Assembly (NCBI RefSeq): GCF_030013595.1
Contig: NZ_CP122768.1
Length of the DNA stretch: 64,000 bases
Source: Escherichia coli
GTDB taxonomy: Bacteria > Pseudomonadota > Gammaproteobacteria > Enterobacterales > Enterobacteriaceae
Reading direction: 5' to 3' (one strand)
Shown here: positions 12,405 to 43,680 of the stretch, piece after piece
Layout of the letters: each line of letters begins with the position of its first letter
Numbering within the stretch: position 1 is the first letter of the stretch
Program-made: the position numbers and the translations under genes
The notes under the pieces: model-generated
What the model was told of the DNA's origin: nothing
The model's input: the letters and a program-made list of their open reading frames with translations, nothing else
Database searches by the model: none

Positions 12405-12775
12405 CTATACTTCCTCCGTGTTTTCGATGAGATGTAAGGTAACCAATTTTTGCCGATTCGGCTAATGCGTTTCCATTATCAAATCGATAAGTTTTACCTT
12501 ACAACCTTCGTAAGACAACTTTGTGAACTTTGCACCGCCAGCGGCGATAAAAAGTAAAATGGCCCCCTTTCCAGGTGACCGTGTAATCTGAACTACCCTT
12601 TGGTATCTTCAGCGCCTGCCTGCAGGCTGAGGTGTTGCCCTTACAAATGCAACAACGACATGGATTACAACACCCTCATAAACAAAGGGCAATCACCTGA
12701 TCTAAGCTCTTACCTATGACAGTGATAGGTTATGCCTTTTACCCGACTTTTGCACTGACTGAAAAGGACAAATTA

Positions 12776-13522: not shown

Positions 13523-13729
13523 AAGATAATTCATGGATGGTTGAAATATATCCCTGTTTTTCAACCATCCTAAAAAAGCATGAATTGCTCGCTCTGCCCT
13601 AAGTGGCTGTGCTATTTTAGAAAAACTTAATTCTGAGTTAAGCAAAAAAACATAATACAAATAAATACAACAGCAACATTATTGAACAAATGAATGATTT
13701 ATAGAAGAGATAATATAACGGAGTATGTT

Positions 13730-14632
13730 ATGGCGAATCTTTATGACCTAAAAAAATTTGATCTGAATTTACTGGTCATATTTGAGTGCATTTATCAACA
13801 CCTCAGCATTAGCAAAGCAGCAGAATCATTATATATAACGCCCTCTGCTGTTAGTCAGTCGTTACAACGTTTACGCGCGCAATTTAATGACCCGTTATTC
13901 ATCCGCTCAGGGAAAGGTATCGCGCCGACTACGACAGGGTTAAACCTGCATCACCATCTTGAGAAGAATCTCCGAGGCCTTGAACAAACGATCAATATTG
14001 TTAATAAGTCTGAGCTAAAGAAAAATTTTATTATCTACGGTCCTCAGCTTATTTCTTGTACTAATAACAACATGCTAATCCGCTGTCTTAGACAAGATAC
14101 TTCAATCGATATAGAATGCCATGACATACTGCTTTCAGCTGAAAATGCCGAAGAACTGTTGGTTCAACGCAAAACTGACCTGGCAATTACACTACAACCA
14201 GTAATTAGCCGCTCTGTCATCTGCATGCCGTTACATACTATTCGCAATTCTCTTATATGTAGCAATAAACATCCTCGTATTACCGATACCAGTAACTATG
14301 AACAAATTATCGCCGAAGAATTCACCTTGTTGATATCTAAATCAGCAGGGATTGACGAAATTCAAATGGACATAGATGAACGTTTTATGAACCGTAAAGT
14401 TTCATTTCGCAGTTCTTCTTTGTTGACGATAATTAATAGTATTTCTGTTACTGACTTATTGGGCATTGTGCCCACCGAACTGTACGATTTACATCGTGAT
14501 TTTTTGAAGTTACAAGAGATAAAACTGGAACGACCACTTCCTGCGGTTAAACTTTATATTTCCTATAACAAGGCTTCGTTGAACAACCTTGTCTTCTCAC
14601 GATTCATAGATCGTTTAAATGATAGCTTCTGA
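13730..14632 (+). CDS. ybdO: LysR-family transcriptional regulator
   Basis: ORF 13694-14632; start at MANLYDLKKFDLNLLVIFE... gives 300 aa; N-terminal LysR-type HTH; region looks AT-rich by eye. Confidence 0.8.
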   Translation: MANLYDLKKFDLNLLVIFECIYQHLSISKAAESLYITPSAVSQSLQRLRAQFNDPLFIRSGKGIAPTTTGLNLHHHLEKNLRGLEQTINIVNKSELKKNFIIYGPQLISCTNNNMLIRCLRQDTSIDIECHDILLSAENAEELLVQRKTDLAITLQPVISRSVICMPLHTIRNSLICSNKHPRITDTSNYEQIIAEEFTLLISKSAGIDEIQMDIDERFMNRKVSFRSSSLLTIINSISVTDLLGIVPTELYDLHRDFLKLQEIKLERPLPAVKLYISYNKASLNNLVFSRFIDRLNDSF

Positions 14633-14778
14633 TTTATTACCACGGATAAATGTTATATTACGCATCAATTAATTCATTGTGTGAATATAAAATAATGTGC
14701 TCTATCTTGCTTCGTTTACCCTATAATTAACGGATTCATCTCACGAGTCACCCCGTAACGTTCAGAGAGCGTTTTCAG

Positions 14779-15999
14779 ATGTCTATTTATAAAATCCCGC
14801 TTCCACTGAATATTCTGGAAGCTGCAAAAGAACGTATTACCTGGACACTTAACACCCTACCCCGCGTCTGCGTTTCTTTTTCGGGTGGTAAAGATTCCGG
14901 ATTAATGCTGCATCTGACCGCCGAACTTGCCCGACAAATGGGCAAAAAAATTTGTGTTTTATTTATCGACTGGGAAGCTCAGTTCTCTTGCACCATTAAC
15001 TATGTTCAGTCTCTGCGCGAGTTGTACACCGATGTCATCGAAGAGTTTTACTGGATTGCGCTCCCGCTTACAACGCAAAATTCCCTATCACAATACCAAC
15101 CCGAATGGCAGTGCTGGGAACCTGATGTCGAATGGGTACGTCAGCCCCCGCAAGATGCGATAACCGATCCTGACTTTTTCTCCTTTTACCAGCCTGGCAT
15201 GACCTTCGAACAATTTGTGCGTGAGTTTGCCGAATGGTTTTCGCAAAAACGTCCGGCGGCGATGATGATCGGCATCCGTGCGGATGAGTCCTACAACCGT
15301 TTTGTCGCCATCGCCAGTTTAAATAAACAACGTTTTGCCGATGATAAGCCCTGGACTACTGCCGCACCAGGCGGTCATAGCTGGTACATTTACCCCATCT
15401 ACGACTGGAAAGTCGCTGATATCTGGACCTGGTATGCTAGCCATCAACGCCTCTGTAACCCACTGTATAATATAATGTATCAGGCAGGCGTTCCTCTACG
15501 TCATATGCGAATTTGCGAACCTTTTGGTCCGGAACAACGGCAAGGATTATGGCTCTATCACGTTATCGAACCGGATCGCTGGGCTGCTATGTGCGCACGA
15601 GTCAGCGGGGTAAAAAGTGGCGGCATTTACGCCGGACATGACAACCATTTTTATGGTCATCGGAAAATCCTCAAGCCCGAACATTTAGACTGGCAGGAGT
15701 ATGCATTATTGCTACTCAACAGCATGCCGGAGAAAACAGCTGAGCATTATCGCAATAAAATCGCCATTTATTTGCACTGGTATCAGAAAAAAGGCATCGA
15801 GGTTCCACAAACCCAGCAAGGGGACATTGGCGCGAAAGATATCCCCTCCTGGCGGCGAATATGCAAAGTTTTACTCAATAACGATTACTGGTGTCGGGCA
15901 TTATCATTTAGCCCGACCAAAGCGAAGAACTATCAGCGTTATAACGAACGAATAAAAGGAAAACGTCAGGAATGGGGGATACTATGCAACAACGATTAA
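14779..15999 (+). CDS. ybdN: PAPS-reductase-like PP-loop ATP pyrophosphatase family protein (IbrA-like)
   Basis: 406-aa ORF with the PP-loop motif SFSGGKDS near the N-terminus. Confidence 0.8.
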   Translation: MSIYKIPLPLNILEAAKERITWTLNTLPRVCVSFSGGKDSGLMLHLTAELARQMGKKICVLFIDWEAQFSCTINYVQSLRELYTDVIEEFYWIALPLTTQNSLSQYQPEWQCWEPDVEWVRQPPQDAITDPDFFSFYQPGMTFEQFVREFAEWFSQKRPAAMMIGIRADESYNRFVAIASLNKQRFADDKPWTTAAPGGHSWYIYPIYDWKVADIWTWYASHQRLCNPLYNIMYQAGVPLRHMRICEPFGPEQRQGLWLYHVIEPDRWAAMCARVSGVKSGGIYAGHDNHFYGHRKILKPEHLDWQEYALLLLNSMPEKTAEHYRNKIAIYLHWYQKKGIEVPQTQQGDIGAKDIPSWRRICKVLLNNDYWCRALSFSPTKAKNYQRYNERIKGKRQEWGILCNND

Positions 16000-16600
16000 C
16001 GCAGGATTTAACCCAATTTCTCGCCAGCTTGCCGGAAGACGATCGCATCAAAGCGATTAATGAAATCCGCATGGCGATCCATCAGGTTAGCCCCTTTCGA
16101 GAAGAGCCAGTGGATTGCGTTCTGTGGGTTAAAACAGCCAACTTATGCCTAATGATTACAACCCAAACAACGTGGCACCACCCGAAAAAAAACTGCTGAA
16201 AAAATCCATTGAAATAGATGGTTTTACCCAACCCATTGTGGTCACGCATACGGATAAAAATGCCCTGGAAATCGTGGATGGTTTTCACCGCCATGAAATT
16301 GGTAAAGGCTCATCATCGTTAAAATTACGCTTAAAAGGTTATTTGCCGGTGACCTGTCTGGAAGGTACGCGTAATCAACGCATCGCCGCGACTATTCGTC
16401 ATAACCGCGCTCGTGGACGTCACCAAATCACTGCCATGTCAGAAATCGTCCGTGAACTCAGCCAGTTGGGATGGGACGATCATAAAATTGGCAAAGAGCT
16501 GGGAATGGACAGCGACGAAGTGCTACGCCTGAAGCAAATTAACGGCCTGCAAGAGTTGTTTGCCGACCGTCAATATTCCCGCGCCTGGACGGTTAAATAG
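15972..16600 (+). pseudogene. ybdM: ParB/sulfiredoxin-like protein (IbrB-like), apparently frameshifted
   Basis: Two overlapping ORFs in different frames (15972-16199 and 16145-16600) together span 629 nt, one short of the 630 nt expected for the ~209-aa protein; second part carries a DGFHRH ParB-like motif. Confidence 0.6.
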
Positions 16601-41742: not shown

Positions 41743-43080
41743 CATAAGCGCTAACTTAAGGGTTGTGGTATTACGCCTGATATGATTTAACGTGCCGATG
41801 AATTACTCTCACGATAACTGGTCAGCAATTCTGGCCCATATTGGTAAGCCCGAAGAACTGGATACTTCGGCACGTAATGCCGGGGCTCTAACCCGCCGCC
41901 GCGAAATTCGTGATGCTGCAACTCTGCTACGTCTGGGGCTGGCTTACGGCCCCGGGGGGATGTCATTACGTGAAGTCACTGCATGGGCTCAGCTCCATGA
42001 CGTTGCAACATTATCTGACGTGGCTCTCCTGAAGCGGCTGCGGAATGCCGCCGACTGGTTTGGCATACTTGCCGCACAAACACTTGCTGTACGCGCCGCA
42101 GTTACGGGTTGTACAAGCGGAAAGAGATTGCGTCTTGTCGATGGAACAGCAATCAGTGCGCCCGGGGGCGGCAGCGCTGAATGGCGACTACATATGGGAT
42201 ATGATCCTCATACCTGTCAGTTCACTGATTTTGAGCTAACCGACAGCAGAGACGCTGAACGGCTGGACCGATTTGCGCAAACGGCAGACGAGATACGCAT
42301 TGCTGACCGGGGATTCGGTTCGCGTCCCGAATGTATCCGCTCACTTGCTTTTGGAGAAGCTGATTATATCGTCCGGGTTCACTGGCGAGGATTGCGCTGG
42401 TTAACTGCAGAAGGAATGCGCTTTGACATGATGGGTTTTCTGCGCGGGCTGGATTGCGGTAAGAACGGTGAAACCACTGTAATGATAGGCAATTCAGGTA
42501 ATAAAAAAGCCGGAGCTCCCTTTCCGGCACGTCTCATTGCCGTATCACTTCCTCCCGAAAAAGCATTAATCAGTAAAACCCGACTGCTCAGCGAGAATCG
42601 TCGAAAAGGACGAGTAGTTCAGGCGGAAACGCTGGAAGCAGCGGGCCATGTGCTATTGCTAACATCATTACCGGAAGATGAATATTCAGCAGAGCAAGTG
42701 GCTGATTGTTACCGTCTGCGATGGCAAATTGAACTGGCTTTTAAGCGGCTCAAAAGTTTGCTGCACCTGGATGCTTTGCGTGCAAAGGAACCTGAACTCG
42801 CGAAAGCGTGGATATTTGCTAATCTACTCGCCGCATTTTTAATTGACGACATAATCCAGCCATCGCTGGATTTCCCCCCAGAAGTGCCGGATCCGAAAAG
42901 AAGAACTAACTCGTTGTGGAGAATAACAAAAATGGTCATCTGGAGCTTACAGGTGGCCATTCGTGGGACAGTATCCCTGACAGCCTACAAAACGCAATTG
43001 AAGAACGCGAGGCATCGTCTTAACGAGGCACCGAGGCGTCGCATTCTTCAGATGGTTCAACCCTTAAGTTAGCGCTTATG
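41743..43080 (+). mobile_element. IS186 insertion sequence (IS4 family), complete, 1338 bp
   Basis: 23-bp terminal inverted repeats cataagcgctaacttaagggttg (41743-41765) and caacccttaagttagcgcttatg (43058-43080); identical 10-bp direct repeats ggattactcc at 41733-41742 and 43081-43090. Confidence 0.9.
41960..43072 (+). CDS. insL: IS186 transposase (DDE)
   Basis: ORF 41792-43072; start placed at MSLREVTAWAQL... to give the ~370 aa I recall for InsL; start uncertain. Confidence 0.75.
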   Translation: MSLREVTAWAQLHDVATLSDVALLKRLRNAADWFGILAAQTLAVRAAVTGCTSGKRLRLVDGTAISAPGGGSAEWRLHMGYDPHTCQFTDFELTDSRDAERLDRFAQTADEIRIADRGFGSRPECIRSLAFGEADYIVRVHWRGLRWLTAEGMRFDMMGFLRGLDCGKNGETTVMIGNSGNKKAGAPFPARLIAVSLPPEKALISKTRLLSENRRKGRVVQAETLEAAGHVLLLTSLPEDEYSAEQVADCYRLRWQIELAFKRLKSLLHLDALRAKEPELAKAWIFANLLAAFLIDDIIQPSLDFPPEVPDPKRRTNSLWRITKMVIWSLQVAIRGTVSLTAYKTQLKNARHRLNEAPRRRILQMVQPLS

Positions 43081-43254: not shown

Positions 43255-43680
43255 GTTTATATTGCCTCCATGCGAAGAAGGGACTACCATCCAAATTGTC
43301 TGGTTTGGAGTGGCAGCCCCAGGGTTGATAGAAATATCTCCTGGGGCTTCATCTTTCCAGACCTCAGAGTAAACCTGAAACCGGAAAGCTTCAGGCACCC
43401 GCCGTTATCTTACCCTTCCTCAGCAAAATAGCTGTTTATTTATACAGTGAGTCCTGTTTCGGACTTCTCACTCCTCATTTGATCAACTGAAGCTGAACCC
43501 GTTTTTTTCTGCATGCCTCAATCGTCAAAATTCTTCGCCACCAGCCAGCTCTGCCATAACTTGTCACATTGCAGAAGTAGCCAAACTTCTTCAGTCACAA
43601 TCAGTTCACCATCACCAAAAAAAGAAACATTCCAGAACTTCCGCATCTCGCCCAGTCGCTCCCACTTCTATACTGAATAG

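What the first reader, a model, noticed from the sequence alone, without database searches (positions are those of the whole stretch)
13530..16600. ybdO-ybdN-ybdM: PP-loop ATP-pyrophosphatase-like plus ParB-like pair behind a LysR regulator
YbdN carries a PP-loop (SFSGGKDS) of the PAPS reductase / ATP sulfurylase-like family; YbdM carries a ParB/sulfiredoxin-like DGFHRH motif. The same domain pairing forms the core of DNA-modification systems (DndC with DndB in phosphorothioation) and of IbrA/IbrB, which regulate immunoglobulin-binding genes. The pair overlaps by about 28 nt, sits behind a LysR regulator (ybdO), and the segment looks AT-rich by eye, suggesting a horizontally acquired, possibly H-NS-silenced module. 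Its biochemical function is, to my knowledge, unresolved. The apparent frameshift in ybdM would mean the module is inactive in this strain.
Basis: partly seen in the sequence, partly recalled or inferred. Interest (0 to 1): 0.55.

Follow-up and report, generated by a model that had tools for sequence, protein, structure and literature searches.

The report
E. coli citR-ybdN-ybdM gene cluster
This is the known E. coli citR(ybdO)-ybdN-ybdM cluster: a repressor gene followed by a conserved, phage-type pair (an ATP-splitting enzyme and a ParB-like DNA-binding protein) whose regulation is published but whose chemistry is still unknown, and whose ybdM copy here carries a one-base deletion seen in no other complete E. 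coli genome.

Summary
The window is E. coli, and 13730-16600 carries citR/ybdO, ybdN and ybdM with the stated motifs, a 28-nt overlap and a real frameshift.

The frameshift is a 1-bp loss in an A5 run. It occurs in 0 of 5,426 complete genomes, so it is either a private mutation or a sequencing error.

AT-richness is confined to citR and the intergenic DNA (35-38% GC). ybdN and ybdM are about 47% GC.

The cluster is not a recent import. It is in 5,422 of 5,426 genomes and is syntenic in Salmonella and Klebsiella. ybdN and ybdM are under strong purifying selection (dN/dS 0.03-0.10).

Published work already shows H-NS silencing of ybdO and CitR repression of ybdNM. I found no paper on the biochemistry.

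YbdN is a PP-loop ATP pyrophosphatase of the PAPS-reductase/FAD-synthase clade and has no invariant cysteine. It fails the tests for CysH and for DndC. YbdM has a ParB/sulfiredoxin core followed by a sigma-4-like HTH, the same layout as KorB.

The pair is an obligate module in phages (77 of 80 loci), often with extra small proteins. A mobile ibrAB-like paralogue sits in 39% of E. coli genomes.

Best reading: a DNA-targeted, ATP-dependent (adenylylating) module of phage origin, kept repressed. Known locus, open chemistry, moderate interest.

The parts
13523..13729 (+). dsbG-citR intergenic region: citR promoter and upstream H-NS-dependent regulatory region
   Evidence: GC is 0.36-0.40 here. Higashi 2016 mapped the ybdO transcription start 107 bp upstream of the start codon, and H-NS-dependent elements at -250..-176 and +27..+164 (PMC4720273). 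The positions are transferred to this window by homology and were not measured here.
13730..14632 (+). citR (ybdO), a LysR-type repressor of ybdNM. This is the non-K-12 allele class.
   Evidence: NCBIfam CitR equivalog scores 452.8 bits against a cut-off of 400. RefSeq annotates the same coordinates in the near-identical strain. GC is 0.381. Against the K-12 allele, nucleotide identity is 70-80%, dS is 2.0-2.6 and dN/dS is 0.03.
14672..14686 (.). Candidate LysR (T-N11-A) box ATTCAttgtgTGAAT in the citR-ybdN spacer
   Evidence: The palindromic arms are conserved in both E. coli allele classes while the centre varies. Equivalent ATTT-N7-AAAT (Salmonella) and TTC-N11-GAA (Klebsiella) sequences occupy the same place. 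Assigning it as a CitR site is inference.
14722..14727 (+). Perfect TATAAT -10 hexamer upstream of ybdN (candidate ybdNM promoter)
   Evidence: Conserved in window, K-12 and E2348/69. The consensus scanner did not call it because the -35 is poor. Its function as a promoter is inferred.
14779..15999 (+). ybdN: PP-loop ATP pyrophosphatase domain of the PAPS-reductase clade (about residues 1-235) plus helical DUF3440 domain (237-383). PP-loop SFSGGKDS is at 14875-14898.
15972..16199 (+). ybdM 5' fragment: the first 53 native codons (N-terminal helical hairpin), then 22 out-of-frame codons and a stop
   Evidence: The native N-terminus is part of the conserved family profile.
16131..16134 (+). A4 run that is A5 in every other complete E. 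coli genome: the frameshift site in ybdM
   Evidence: Alignment to H1, K-12 and E2348/69. Of 5,426 genomes, 0 carry the exact 76-bp window sequence, and the best matches are all 98.7%, meaning one gap. One of only two indels in 62.7 kb against strain HCP5S3_I2, both A-run contractions.
16145..16600 (+). ybdM 3' part in the native frame (native residues 59-209): most of the ParB/sulfiredoxin core (DGFHRH at 16277-16294) and the C-terminal HTH

Best explanation
The region is the chromosomal citR(ybdO)-ybdN-ybdM cluster of Enterobacteriaceae. ybdN-ybdM is an anciently domesticated copy of a two-protein module that is otherwise carried mainly by phages and prophages (the IbrA/IbrB family).

Proposed mechanism, with each step marked shown or inferred:
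1. H-NS silences citR, and CitR represses the ybdNM operon from the spacer promoter. Shown in the literature.
2. YbdN and YbdM are made together from overlapping reading frames and act as a complex. Inferred from obligate adjacency and from fusions of accessory proteins to either partner.
3. YbdM binds DNA through its sigma-4-like HTH and uses its ParB/sulfiredoxin-type nucleotide-binding core as a switch or phosphotransfer site. Fold shown; activity inferred.
4. YbdN uses its intact PP-loop to split ATP into AMP and PPi and to adenylylate an oxyanion. The target would be on DNA or on a DNA-bound partner, as its closest structural relatives do with FMN phosphate or sulfate. Fold and motif shown; substrate inferred.
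5. The output is a covalent, nucleotide-dependent mark or remodelling of target DNA that changes the expression or fate of mobile DNA. This would fit the reported activation of prophage eib genes by IbrAB. Inferred.

It is not a sulfate-assimilation PAPS reductase, whatever the RefSeq product name says. It is not a Dnd phosphorothioation system. In this particular sequence ybdM is broken by a 1-bp deletion, so the module would be inactive here if that deletion is real.
For: Identity and regulation:
- Locus identity.
- The CitR ChIP-exo peak lies at the locus, and ybdN rises by 5.5 log2 and ybdM by 2.5 log2 in a citR deletion (PMC9068703).
- H-NS represses ybdO in three strains (PMC4720273).

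YbdN:
- Pfam PAPS_reduct plus DUF3440.
- The PP-loop SGGKDS is invariant in 49 diverse homologues.

YbdM:
- The family profile hits ParB, Noc and Spo0J, with DGFHR aligned on GERR.

Coupling of the two genes:
- A 28-nt overlap here and in Salmonella, and 16 nt in Klebsiella.
- A YbdM homologue lies within 1.35 kb on the same strand in 77 of 80 IMG/VR loci. The three exceptions have the ybdN homologue within about 450 nt of a contig end, so an upstream partner could be cut off.
- The same gene order occurs in Streptococcus, Pseudoalteromonas, Arthrobacter and Fusobacterium phages.
- Accessory protein X is fused to the YbdM homologue, and X2 to the YbdN homologue, in some loci.

Selection and spread:
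- dN/dS is 0.03-0.10, and the cluster is present in 5,422 of 5,426 genomes.
- Strong PHROG families match both proteins (1e-77 and 4.5e-69).
- An ibrAB-like paralogue is in 2,093 of 5,426 E. coli genomes. In the one prophage inspected it sits in the nin region.
Against: - No biochemical activity, DNA binding, complex formation or modified nucleotide has been shown for any member. I could not run a complex prediction or inspect model coordinates.
- YbdM lacks the GERRxR arginine patch of ParB CTPases, so its nucleotide chemistry is unclear.
- The content of the IbrAB phenotype paper (J Bacteriol 2002) comes from my own knowledge. The paper is not in the held library.
- Nothing in the Enterobacteriaceae neighbourhood points to a DNA 'reader' partner.
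- The cys regulon goes up in the citR mutant. This hints at a sulfur link that the model does not explain.
Confidence: 0.4

Rival explanations
1. Pure transcription-factor pair with no covalent chemistry on DNA. YbdM would be a KorB/VirB-like ParB-family DNA-binding regulator, possibly a counter-silencer of H-NS-bound genes. YbdN would be a nucleotide-sensing co-activator whose ATP hydrolysis loads or resets YbdM.
For: - IbrAB is reported as a co-activator of prophage eib genes (reference listed; the content is from my own knowledge).
- The locus is itself embedded in H-NS-controlled DNA.
- UniProt predicts YbdM as a transcription factor, according to PMC9068703.
Against: - A full, invariant PP-loop catalytic motif and 20 or more invariant or near-invariant residues across a 400-aa enzyme are more than a sensor needs.
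- Phage loci often add a GNAT-like acyltransferase and other small partners next to the pair. That looks like a modification pathway.
- The GERRxR CTP motif is absent.
Confidence: 0.25
2. A Dnd-like sulfur-insertion system: phosphorothioation or another thiolation of nucleic acid. YbdN would play the DndC role and YbdM the DndB role, with sulfur supplied in trans by IscS.
For: - The domain pairing is the same as DndB/DndC, and the D-G-x-H-R signature resembles DndB's DGQHR.
- There are weak DndC hits (TIGR03183 at 8e-5; PADLOC DndC at 2e-5).
- E. coli YbdN has Cys at 246, 362 and 372. Each is present in 84-96% of the closer subfamily, and all three together in 57 of 83 sequences.
- The cys regulon is induced when ybdNM is derepressed in the citR mutant.
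Against: - The DndC model scores 21.7 bits against a cut-off of 290.4, and no DndB model matches.
- No cysteine is invariant. The three commonest Cys positions are replaced independently by Ala, Val or Gly across the family, which is not the all-or-none pattern of an Fe-S site. There is no Cys dyad. DndC's defining features are taken from PMC10853773.
- No DndA, DndD or DndE genes lie nearby.
- Structurally YbdN is closest to FMN adenylyltransferase, APS reductase and CysD.
Confidence: 0.1
3. An anti-phage, anti-plasmid or superinfection-exclusion module (or a phage counter-defence) whose DNA-directed activity discriminates foreign from self DNA.
For: - The pair is mostly phage- or prophage-borne (at least 589 IMG/VR loci; 224 GenBank phage records).
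- In one STEC prophage it lies on the opposite strand in the nin region, like a moron.
- There are up to 4 copies per genome, and 71 places on plasmids.
- Neighbours in phage loci include DNA methyltransferases and nucleases.
- YbdM protein rose 29-fold in a plasmid-carrying strain, and deleting ybdM raised the plasmid's cost slightly.
Against: - PADLOC gives only marginal hits.
- The chromosomal copy is a fixed core gene pair at a conserved non-island site across genera, which is unlike defence islands.
- No conserved effector or nuclease partner was found among the 80 loci.
Confidence: 0.12
4. YbdN is what RefSeq calls it, a PAPS reductase or sulfate-assimilation enzyme, and the ParB-like gene is incidental.
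For: - The RefSeq product name.
- The fold is closest to APS/PAPS reductases and CysD.
- The cys regulon is up in the citR mutant.
Against: - CysH models score 34 bits against cut-offs of 154-254, and CysD models 24 against 195.
- The catalytic C-terminal cysteine of CysH has no invariant counterpart.
- YbdN keeps a canonical ATP-type PP-loop.
- The obligate pairing with a ParB-like HTH protein in phages has no place in sulfate assimilation.
- From established knowledge, E. coli has its own cysH and cysDN.
Confidence: 0.03
5. The frameshift is a sequencing or assembly error at a homopolymer, so the module is intact in the real strain.
For: - The deletion is in an A5 run and occurs in none of 5,426 complete genomes.
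- The only other indel in 62.7 kb against the nearest genome is also an A-run contraction (A8 to A7 at 43616, intergenic).
- The gene is otherwise under strong purifying selection.
Against: - There are only two indels in 62.7 kb, so the assembly is not generally error-prone.
- A-run slippage is also a common real mutation.
- Truncated ybdM products are on record in Shigella and E. coli clusters (P0151, P0181).
Confidence: 0.45

Closest known systems
IbrA/IbrB of the E. coli ECOR-9 IbrAB island (co-activators of prophage eib genes)
   Same: The two-gene architecture is the same: PAPS_reduct plus DUF3440 followed by an overlapping ParB_N/HTH gene. RefSeq names YbdM 'IbrB-like domain-containing protein'. 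A mobile pair with about 57% identity to YbdN, carrying the same RefSeq product names, is in 2,093 of 5,426 E. coli genomes. I did not compare that pair directly with the ECOR-9 IbrA/IbrB sequences.
   Different: ybdNM is a fixed chromosomal pair behind its own LysR repressor, syntenic across genera. The ibrAB-like pair is accessory; the one copy I inspected lies in a prophage nin region, and 71 places are on plasmids. The mechanism of IbrAB is itself unknown.
DndB-DndC of the DndABCDE DNA phosphorothioation system
   Same: A ParB/Srx-superfamily protein with a D-G-x-H-R motif is paired with a PP-loop ATP pyrophosphatase of the PAPS-reductase clade. DndB is reported to be an ATP-responsive regulator.
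   Different: No DndA, DndD or DndE. Model scores are far below cut-off. No invariant Cys, Fe-S triad or Cys dyad. YbdN carries DUF3440 instead.
KorB / ParB / Noc / VirB: ParB-family NTP-switch DNA-binding proteins
   Different: DGFHRH replaces GERRxR. There is no C-terminal dimerisation domain, since the protein ends after the HTH. An extra N-terminal helical hairpin is present. The protein depends on a PP-loop enzyme partner.
FMN adenylyltransferase (FAD synthase PAPS domain), CysD ATP sulfurylase, CysH APS/PAPS reductase
   Different: YbdN has a 45-residue Trp-rich insertion (W110, W113, W119, R121), a 170-residue DUF3440 helical domain, no catalytic Cys, and an obligate DNA-binding partner.
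Sulfiredoxin, free serine kinase SerK, SbnI (ParB/Srx-fold kinases)
   Different: YbdM has an HTH domain and lacks the catalytic Cys of sulfiredoxin. The adjacency to ahpC and dsbG is conserved in the three genera examined, but I found no functional evidence linking them.

Membership tests
CitR (YbdO) LysR-type regulator | Full-length match to the NCBIfam equivalog NF047710 at or above the curated cut-off | tested here: met
   452.8 bits against a cut-off of 400, covering residues 1-294 of 295 model positions.
CitR (YbdO) LysR-type regulator | Lies immediately upstream of ybdNM on the same strand, at the dsbG-ybdL site | tested here: met
   The same arrangement holds in Salmonella and Klebsiella.
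PP-loop ATP pyrophosphatase superfamily (YbdN) | SGGxDS PP-loop at the end of beta-1 of a Rossmann-like alpha-hydrolase fold | tested here: met
PP-loop ATP pyrophosphatase superfamily (YbdN) | ATP to AMP + PPi activity | not testable with these tools
   Needs an enzyme assay.
CysH PAPS/APS reductase | Model score above cut-off, and a conserved C-terminal catalytic cysteine (ECG[LI]H) | tested here: not met
   TIGR02057 scores 34 against 254.2, and NF002537 scores 33.2 against 154. No cysteine is invariant in the family.
DndC (DNA phosphorothioation) | TIGR03183 or PADLOC DndC match at family level | tested here: not met
   21.7 bits against a cut-off of 290.4, and the match covers only residues 145-222.
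DndC (DNA phosphorothioation) | 4Fe-4S centre held by three conserved Cys, plus a Cys dyad (definition from PMC10853773) | tested here: not met
   At family level no Cys is invariant. C246, C362 and C372 are replaced independently by Ala, Val or Gly. E. coli YbdN and 57 of 83 closer relatives do carry all three, so a subfamily-specific metal site cannot be excluded without coordinates or biochemistry.
DndC (DNA phosphorothioation) | Operon partners DndA/IscS, DndD and DndE | tested here: not met
   The neighbours are dsbG, citR and ybdL.
DndB (DGQHR-domain protein) | Match to DndB or DGQHR models | tested here: not met
   No DndB model is hit in NCBIfam or PADLOC at E <= 0.01. Only the D-G-x-H-R signature is shared.
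ParB/Srx superfamily (YbdM) | ParB N-terminal/sulfiredoxin fold | tested here: met
ParB-type CTPase clamps (ParB, Noc, KorB) | GERRxR arginine patch (box II) for CTP binding | tested here: not met
   The aligned segment is D-G-F-H-R-H/N, which keeps only one of the arginines.
ParB-type CTPase clamps (ParB, Noc, KorB) | HTH DNA-binding domain after the N-domain, a C-terminal dimerisation domain, and a parS-like site | tested here: inconclusive
   The HTH is present (H153-198). No domain follows it, and the last 11 residues are disordered but conserved. No parS-like site was searched for.
IbrA/IbrB family | PAPS_reduct+DUF3440 gene and ParB_N/HTH gene adjacent on one strand | tested here: met
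   The same holds in 77 of 80 viral loci, and in a prophage-borne E. coli paralogue that RefSeq labels 'IbrB-like'.
IbrA/IbrB family | Trans-activation of prophage eib expression | not testable with these tools
   Genetic phenotype only. The original paper is not held.
Known anti-phage defence systems (PADLOC-DB v2) | Significant match of any component | tested here: not met
   Only marginal hits: DndC at 2.1e-5, BrxP at 1.7e-4 and a type II MTase at 8.4e-4.

The most novel reading that the evidence does not exclude
YbdN-YbdM would be the core of a so-far uncharacterised, very widespread phage-derived system. In phages it is joined by the unannotated small proteins X or X2 and sometimes by a GNAT-like protein. 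The system would perform an ATP-dependent, adenylylation-based covalent modification of DNA, or of a DNA-bound protein, with chemistry distinct from phosphorothioation. Enterobacteriaceae would have domesticated one copy under H-NS/CitR control.
Probability: 0.3. Interest if true: 0.8.

Novelty: already known. Interest (0 to 1): 0.4.

Why it matters
ybdN and ybdM are among the E. coli K-12 genes that still lack a biochemical function. They are nevertheless core genes under strong selection and tight double repression. Relatives sit in hundreds of phage genomes and in 39% of E. coli genomes as a second, mobile copy. If the pair modifies DNA or remodels silenced DNA, that would explain how IbrAB switches on prophage virulence-associated genes. 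It would also add a new ParB-plus-PP-loop chemistry to the list of phage and host DNA transactions. For annotation, the RefSeq name 'phosphoadenosine phosphosulfate reductase' for YbdN fails the CysH membership tests applied here. The phage literature repeats it as an 'auxiliary metabolic gene' for sulfur metabolism.

Tried and rejected
- Literature searches for ybdN/ybdM, IbrA/IbrB, DUF3440, ParB plus PAPS reductase, and DndB/DndC/PP-loop found regulation and phenotype fragments only, with no biochemistry. Many IbrB hits were the blood-retinal barrier. The two key older papers (Sandt 2002; Maindola 2014) are not held.
- Sequence searches of the PDB with either protein gave nothing useful. Only the YbdM family profile reached ParB.
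- The single-sequence viral locus search found one close relative only, so an alignment was needed.
- Natural YbdN-YbdM fusions were not found among 149 cluster representatives. The only protein there that also matches YbdM, P0364 (281 aa), looks like a miscalled gene junction.
- Rfam and the promoter/terminator scans of the region gave nothing relevant.
- My first statement that YbdN has no conserved cysteine was re-examined. Three Cys positions are common in the closer subfamily but vary independently across the family. I kept 'no Fe-S site at family level', with a stated caveat.
- Protein X has no Pfam, PHROG or PDB match, and only a chance-level Brig1 hit (E 0.075).
- I considered a sulfiredoxin-peroxiredoxin link because ahpC is nearby. 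I dropped it: YbdM lacks the Srx catalytic Cys, carries an HTH, and pairs with YbdN in phages that have no ahpC.
- A complex prediction was not possible.


Full report
WHAT IS THERE

The window is E. coli chromosome, in the order uspG-ahpFC-dsbG-citR(ybdO)-ybdN-ybdM-ybdL-hcxA. The 3,071-bp stretch 13530-16600 matches 5,422 of 5,426 complete RefSeq E. coli genomes. Its best match is strain HCP5S3_I2, where RefSeq annotates citR, ybdN and ybdM at the corresponding positions.

In window coordinates:
- citR is 13730-14632. It scores 452.8 bits against the NCBIfam CitR equivalog cut-off of 400.
- ybdN is 14779-15999, 406 aa.
- ybdM starts at 15972 and overlaps ybdN by 28 nt. The overlap would be 16 nt if translation starts at the second ATG (15984), as in the Citrobacter orthologues.

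The PP-loop SFSGGKDS (14875-14898) and the DGFHRH motif (16277-16294) are present.

THE FRAMESHIFT

ybdM is split into a 75-aa ORF and a 151-aa ORF because an A5 run has become A4 (16131-16134). HCP5S3_I2, K-12 and E2348/69 all have A5 and an intact 209-aa protein.

None of the 5,426 genomes carries the exact 76-bp sequence around the site. All best matches are 98.7%, which corresponds to one gap.

Against HCP5S3_I2 over 62.7 kb, the window has 18 substitutions and only two indels. Both indels are A-run contractions. The other is A8 to A7 at 43616, which is intergenic.

The lesion is therefore private. It is either a slippage mutation or a homopolymer sequencing error, and I cannot tell which. 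If it is real, any product restarted at M59 would lack the conserved N-terminal hairpin, the invariant residues P46, V47 and W52, and the first beta-strand of the ParB fold. That product is probably inactive.

COMPOSITION AND AGE

Low GC is confined to citR (38.1%) and the flanking spacers (34.9% for citR-ybdN). ybdN and ybdM are 47.2% and 47.4%, similar to dsbG and ahpC.

The same gene order, ahpC-dsbG-LysR-ybdN-ybdM-ybdL, is found in Salmonella and Klebsiella. In both, the regulator gene has lower GC than its neighbours. The cluster therefore predates the split of these genera. The low GC of citR is a maintained feature, not a sign of recent arrival.

ybdN and ybdM are under strong purifying selection. 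dN/dS is 0.03-0.05 for ybdN and 0.045-0.10 for ybdM, within E. coli and, for ybdM, against Salmonella.

PUBLISHED KNOWLEDGE

- Higashi et al. 2016 (PMC4720273) showed that H-NS binds and represses ybdO in K-12, SE11 and SE15. They also showed that ybdO is among the most substitution-rich H-NS-bound genes.
- Rodionova et al. 2022 (PMC9068703) renamed YbdO as CitR. They found a ChIP-exo peak at the locus. In a citR deletion, ybdN rose by 5.5 log2 and ybdM by 2.5 log2.
- A 2022 mBio paper calls YbdM 'completely uncharacterized'. It reports a 29-fold rise in the protein in a strain carrying a blaCTX-M-15 plasmid (PMC8764527).
- I found nothing on the biochemistry of YbdN/YbdM or IbrA/IbrB.

YbdN

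Pfam gives a split PAPS_reduct domain plus DUF3440.

In an alignment of 49 homologues down to 26% identity:
- The PP-loop (S35 G36 G37 K38 D39 S40) is invariant or nearly so, together with D64/E66, G165-R167-x-x-E170-S171-x-x-R174, the YPIYDW..DIW block, and N227/Y230.
- A family-specific Trp-rich insertion (W110, W113, W119, R121, P124) is equally conserved.

ahead of TilS, TtuA and GMP synthetase.

The DUF3440 half found no relative in that list.

CysH, CysD and DndC models all score far below their cut-offs. No cysteine is invariant. C246, C362 and C372 are each present in 84-96% of the closer subfamily, and all three together in 57 of 83 sequences. Across the family they are swapped independently for Ala, Val or Gly, which is how buried residues behave, not a metal site.

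YbdN is therefore an ATP-type PP-loop enzyme of the adenylyl-transfer clade. It is neither a PAPS reductase nor a DndC.

YbdM

The family is very conserved, with a mean column identity of 57%. The invariant residues include N61, N64-P65-N66, E72, D103-G104-F105-H106-R107, T141, R143, N145-R146-A147 and H151.

The family profile matches H. pylori ParB (5.5e-7), Noc and Spo0J. DGFHR falls on the GERR box of those proteins.

The model (pLDDT 85) shows, in order:
- an N-terminal helical hairpin,
- a ParB/sulfiredoxin core,
- a C-terminal HTH,
- a disordered but conserved tail (FSxAW).

The layout is that of KorB or ParB without the dimerisation domain and without the CTP arginine patch.

THE PAIR IS A MOBILE MODULE

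Both proteins hit phage families strongly: phrog_2302 at 1e-77, phrog_15645 at 9e-86 and phrog_2159 at 4.5e-69.

tblastn finds YbdN relatives in 224 GenBank phage records. Annotated Streptococcus, Pseudoalteromonas, Arthrobacter and Fusobacterium phages all show the PAPS-reductase-like gene with an adjacent ParB-like gene.

IMG/VR holds at least 589 loci. In the 80 best:
- 77 have a YbdM homologue within 1.35 kb on the same strand.
- In the 3 exceptions the ybdN homologue lies within about 450 nt of a contig end, so an upstream partner could be cut off.
- Nothing else in the neighbourhood is conserved. The surrounding genes are replication and recombination genes, methyltransferases and, further on, terminase.

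Many loci add a small partner:
- Protein X (about 130 aa, no Pfam, PHROG or PDB match) is in 53 of 80 loci. It is usually immediately upstream of the YbdN homologue, or fused to the C-terminus of the YbdM homologue in 11 loci.
- An unrelated protein X2 is in 15 of 80 loci, and is fused to the N-terminus of the YbdN homologue in P0243.
- A GNAT-like protein is in 12 of 80 loci.

None of the three is encoded in the window.

E. coli itself often carries a second, ibrAB-like copy with about 57% identity to YbdN. It is in 2,093 of 5,426 genomes, with up to 4 places per genome and 71 places on plasmids. In one STEC prophage it lies in the nin region, between the replication genes and rusA-Q, on the opposite strand.

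HOW IT MOST LIKELY WORKS

- Shown: the regulation (H-NS on citR; CitR on ybdNM), the two folds, the intact PP-loop, the obligate pairing, and purifying selection.
- Inferred: the two proteins form a complex. YbdM brings it to DNA through the HTH and uses its ParB/Srx site as a nucleotide switch or phosphotransfer site. YbdN splits ATP at the alpha-beta bond to adenylylate an oxyanion on DNA or on a DNA-bound partner. The result changes the expression or fate of mobile DNA, in line with IbrAB activating prophage eib genes. That phenotype is cited from my own knowledge of Sandt et al. 2002; the reference is listed.

I put this at 0.40.

The main rival is a non-covalent KorB/VirB-like regulator pair (0.25). 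Defence or exclusion follows at 0.12, and Dnd-like sulfur insertion at 0.10. A genuine PAPS reductase is at 0.03.

One observation does not fit the model. The cys regulon rises by 2-2.8 log2 in the citR mutant alongside ybdNM. This may be indirect, since the flagellar regulon also rises by 4-5 log2. It keeps a sulfur link alive.

VERDICT

Three of its inferences need trimming:
- Recent horizontal acquisition: the acquisition is ancient.
- Dnd-like chemistry: membership fails.
- Inactivity of the module in this strain: this rests on one private A-run deletion.

The locus and its regulation are already known. Its chemistry is an open question, and the phage context found here makes that question more tractable.

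Noticed in passing
window 13656-14854 (citR, the citR-ybdN spacer and the first ~75 nt of ybdN): E. coli has two deeply diverged allele classes here. The window and E2348/69 differ from K-12 by 20-30% in nucleotide sequence, while the flanks are 96-100% identical. citR dS is 2.0-2.6 (saturated) against 0.1-0.3 in the neighbours, with dN/dS of only 0.03. About 1,800 genomes carry the window-type allele and about 3,500 the K-12-type. Purifying selection with saturated dS fits ancient balanced or imported alleles better than relaxed drift under H-NS silencing, which is the reading in PMC4720273.
   Followed up: partly
L018:4610-5002 and 52 other IMG/VR loci (e.g. L088:3826-4965 as a fusion): An unannotated ~130-aa protein family ('X') accompanies the YbdN/YbdM-type pair in 53 of 80 phage loci, usually directly upstream of the YbdN homologue. 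Its consensus includes HPYxxWExYxxGMY and NRxAWLGQAA. In 11 loci it is fused to the C-terminus of the ParB-like protein. It has no Pfam, PHROG or PDB match and is absent from the E. coli window.
   Followed up: partly
L016:3521-3928 and 14 other loci; protein P0243 residues 1-141: A second, unrelated small family ('X2'; phrog_26647, unknown function) is present in 15 of 80 loci, directly upstream of the YbdN homologue in at least 11. It is fused to the N-terminus of the YbdN homologue in P0243.
   Followed up: partly
L012:6176-6589, L048:4297-4710 and 10 other loci: A ~135-aa GNAT-like acetyltransferase lies next to the YbdN homologue in 12 of 80 phage loci, directly between it and the ParB-like gene in at least four. 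The GNAT hits are weak but consistent. This hints that some versions of the module include an acyl-transfer step.
   Followed up: partly
L091:7001-8856 (E. coli STEC2018-607 prophage) and 2,093 of 5,426 E. coli genomes: A second, ibrAB-like YbdN/YbdM-type pair (about 57% aa identity to YbdN) is common in E. coli, with up to 4 places per genome and 71 places on plasmids. In this lambdoid prophage it sits in the nin region between the replication genes and rusA-Q, on the opposite strand, like a moron.
   Followed up: partly
window 41744-43079: A 1,336-bp insertion relative to strain HCP5S3_I2, next to hokE. It encodes an IS4-family transposase ORF beginning ...MNYSHDNWSAILAHIGKPEELD.... I recognise this from memory as IS186 and did not test it here.
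   Followed up: partly
window 43616: The only other indel against HCP5S3_I2 in 62.7 kb is also an A-run contraction (A8 to A7). It is intergenic, upstream of ybdK. This bears on whether the ybdM frameshift is a sequencing artefact.
   Followed up: no
window 12549-12642 (- strand), between ahpC and dsbG: An Rfam match to the enterobacterial sRNA STnc70 (RF02069): 44.1 bits against a gathering score of 40, E 1.2e-6.
   Followed up: no
NZ_CP098854.1 (E. coli CUVET21-147), hit H29: In this canine isolate citR is interrupted by an IS1 element. That should derepress ybdNM, making it a natural citR-null strain that could be used to look for ybdNM-dependent phenotypes.
   Followed up: no
PMC9068703 Table 1 (K-12 citR deletion transcriptome): The sulfate-assimilation regulon (cysD, N, C, J, I, A, W, U) rises by 2-2.8 log2 together with ybdN and ybdM when citR is deleted. 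It is unexplained. It may be indirect, or a hint that derepressed YbdN perturbs sulfur or adenylyl-sulfate metabolism.
   Followed up: no
proteins P0151 and P0181 (Shigella/E. coli clusters, 163-167 aa): N-terminally shortened YbdM products are on record in more than 280 member sequences, including Shigella dysenteriae. Independent truncations of ybdM therefore exist in some lineages.
   Followed up: no
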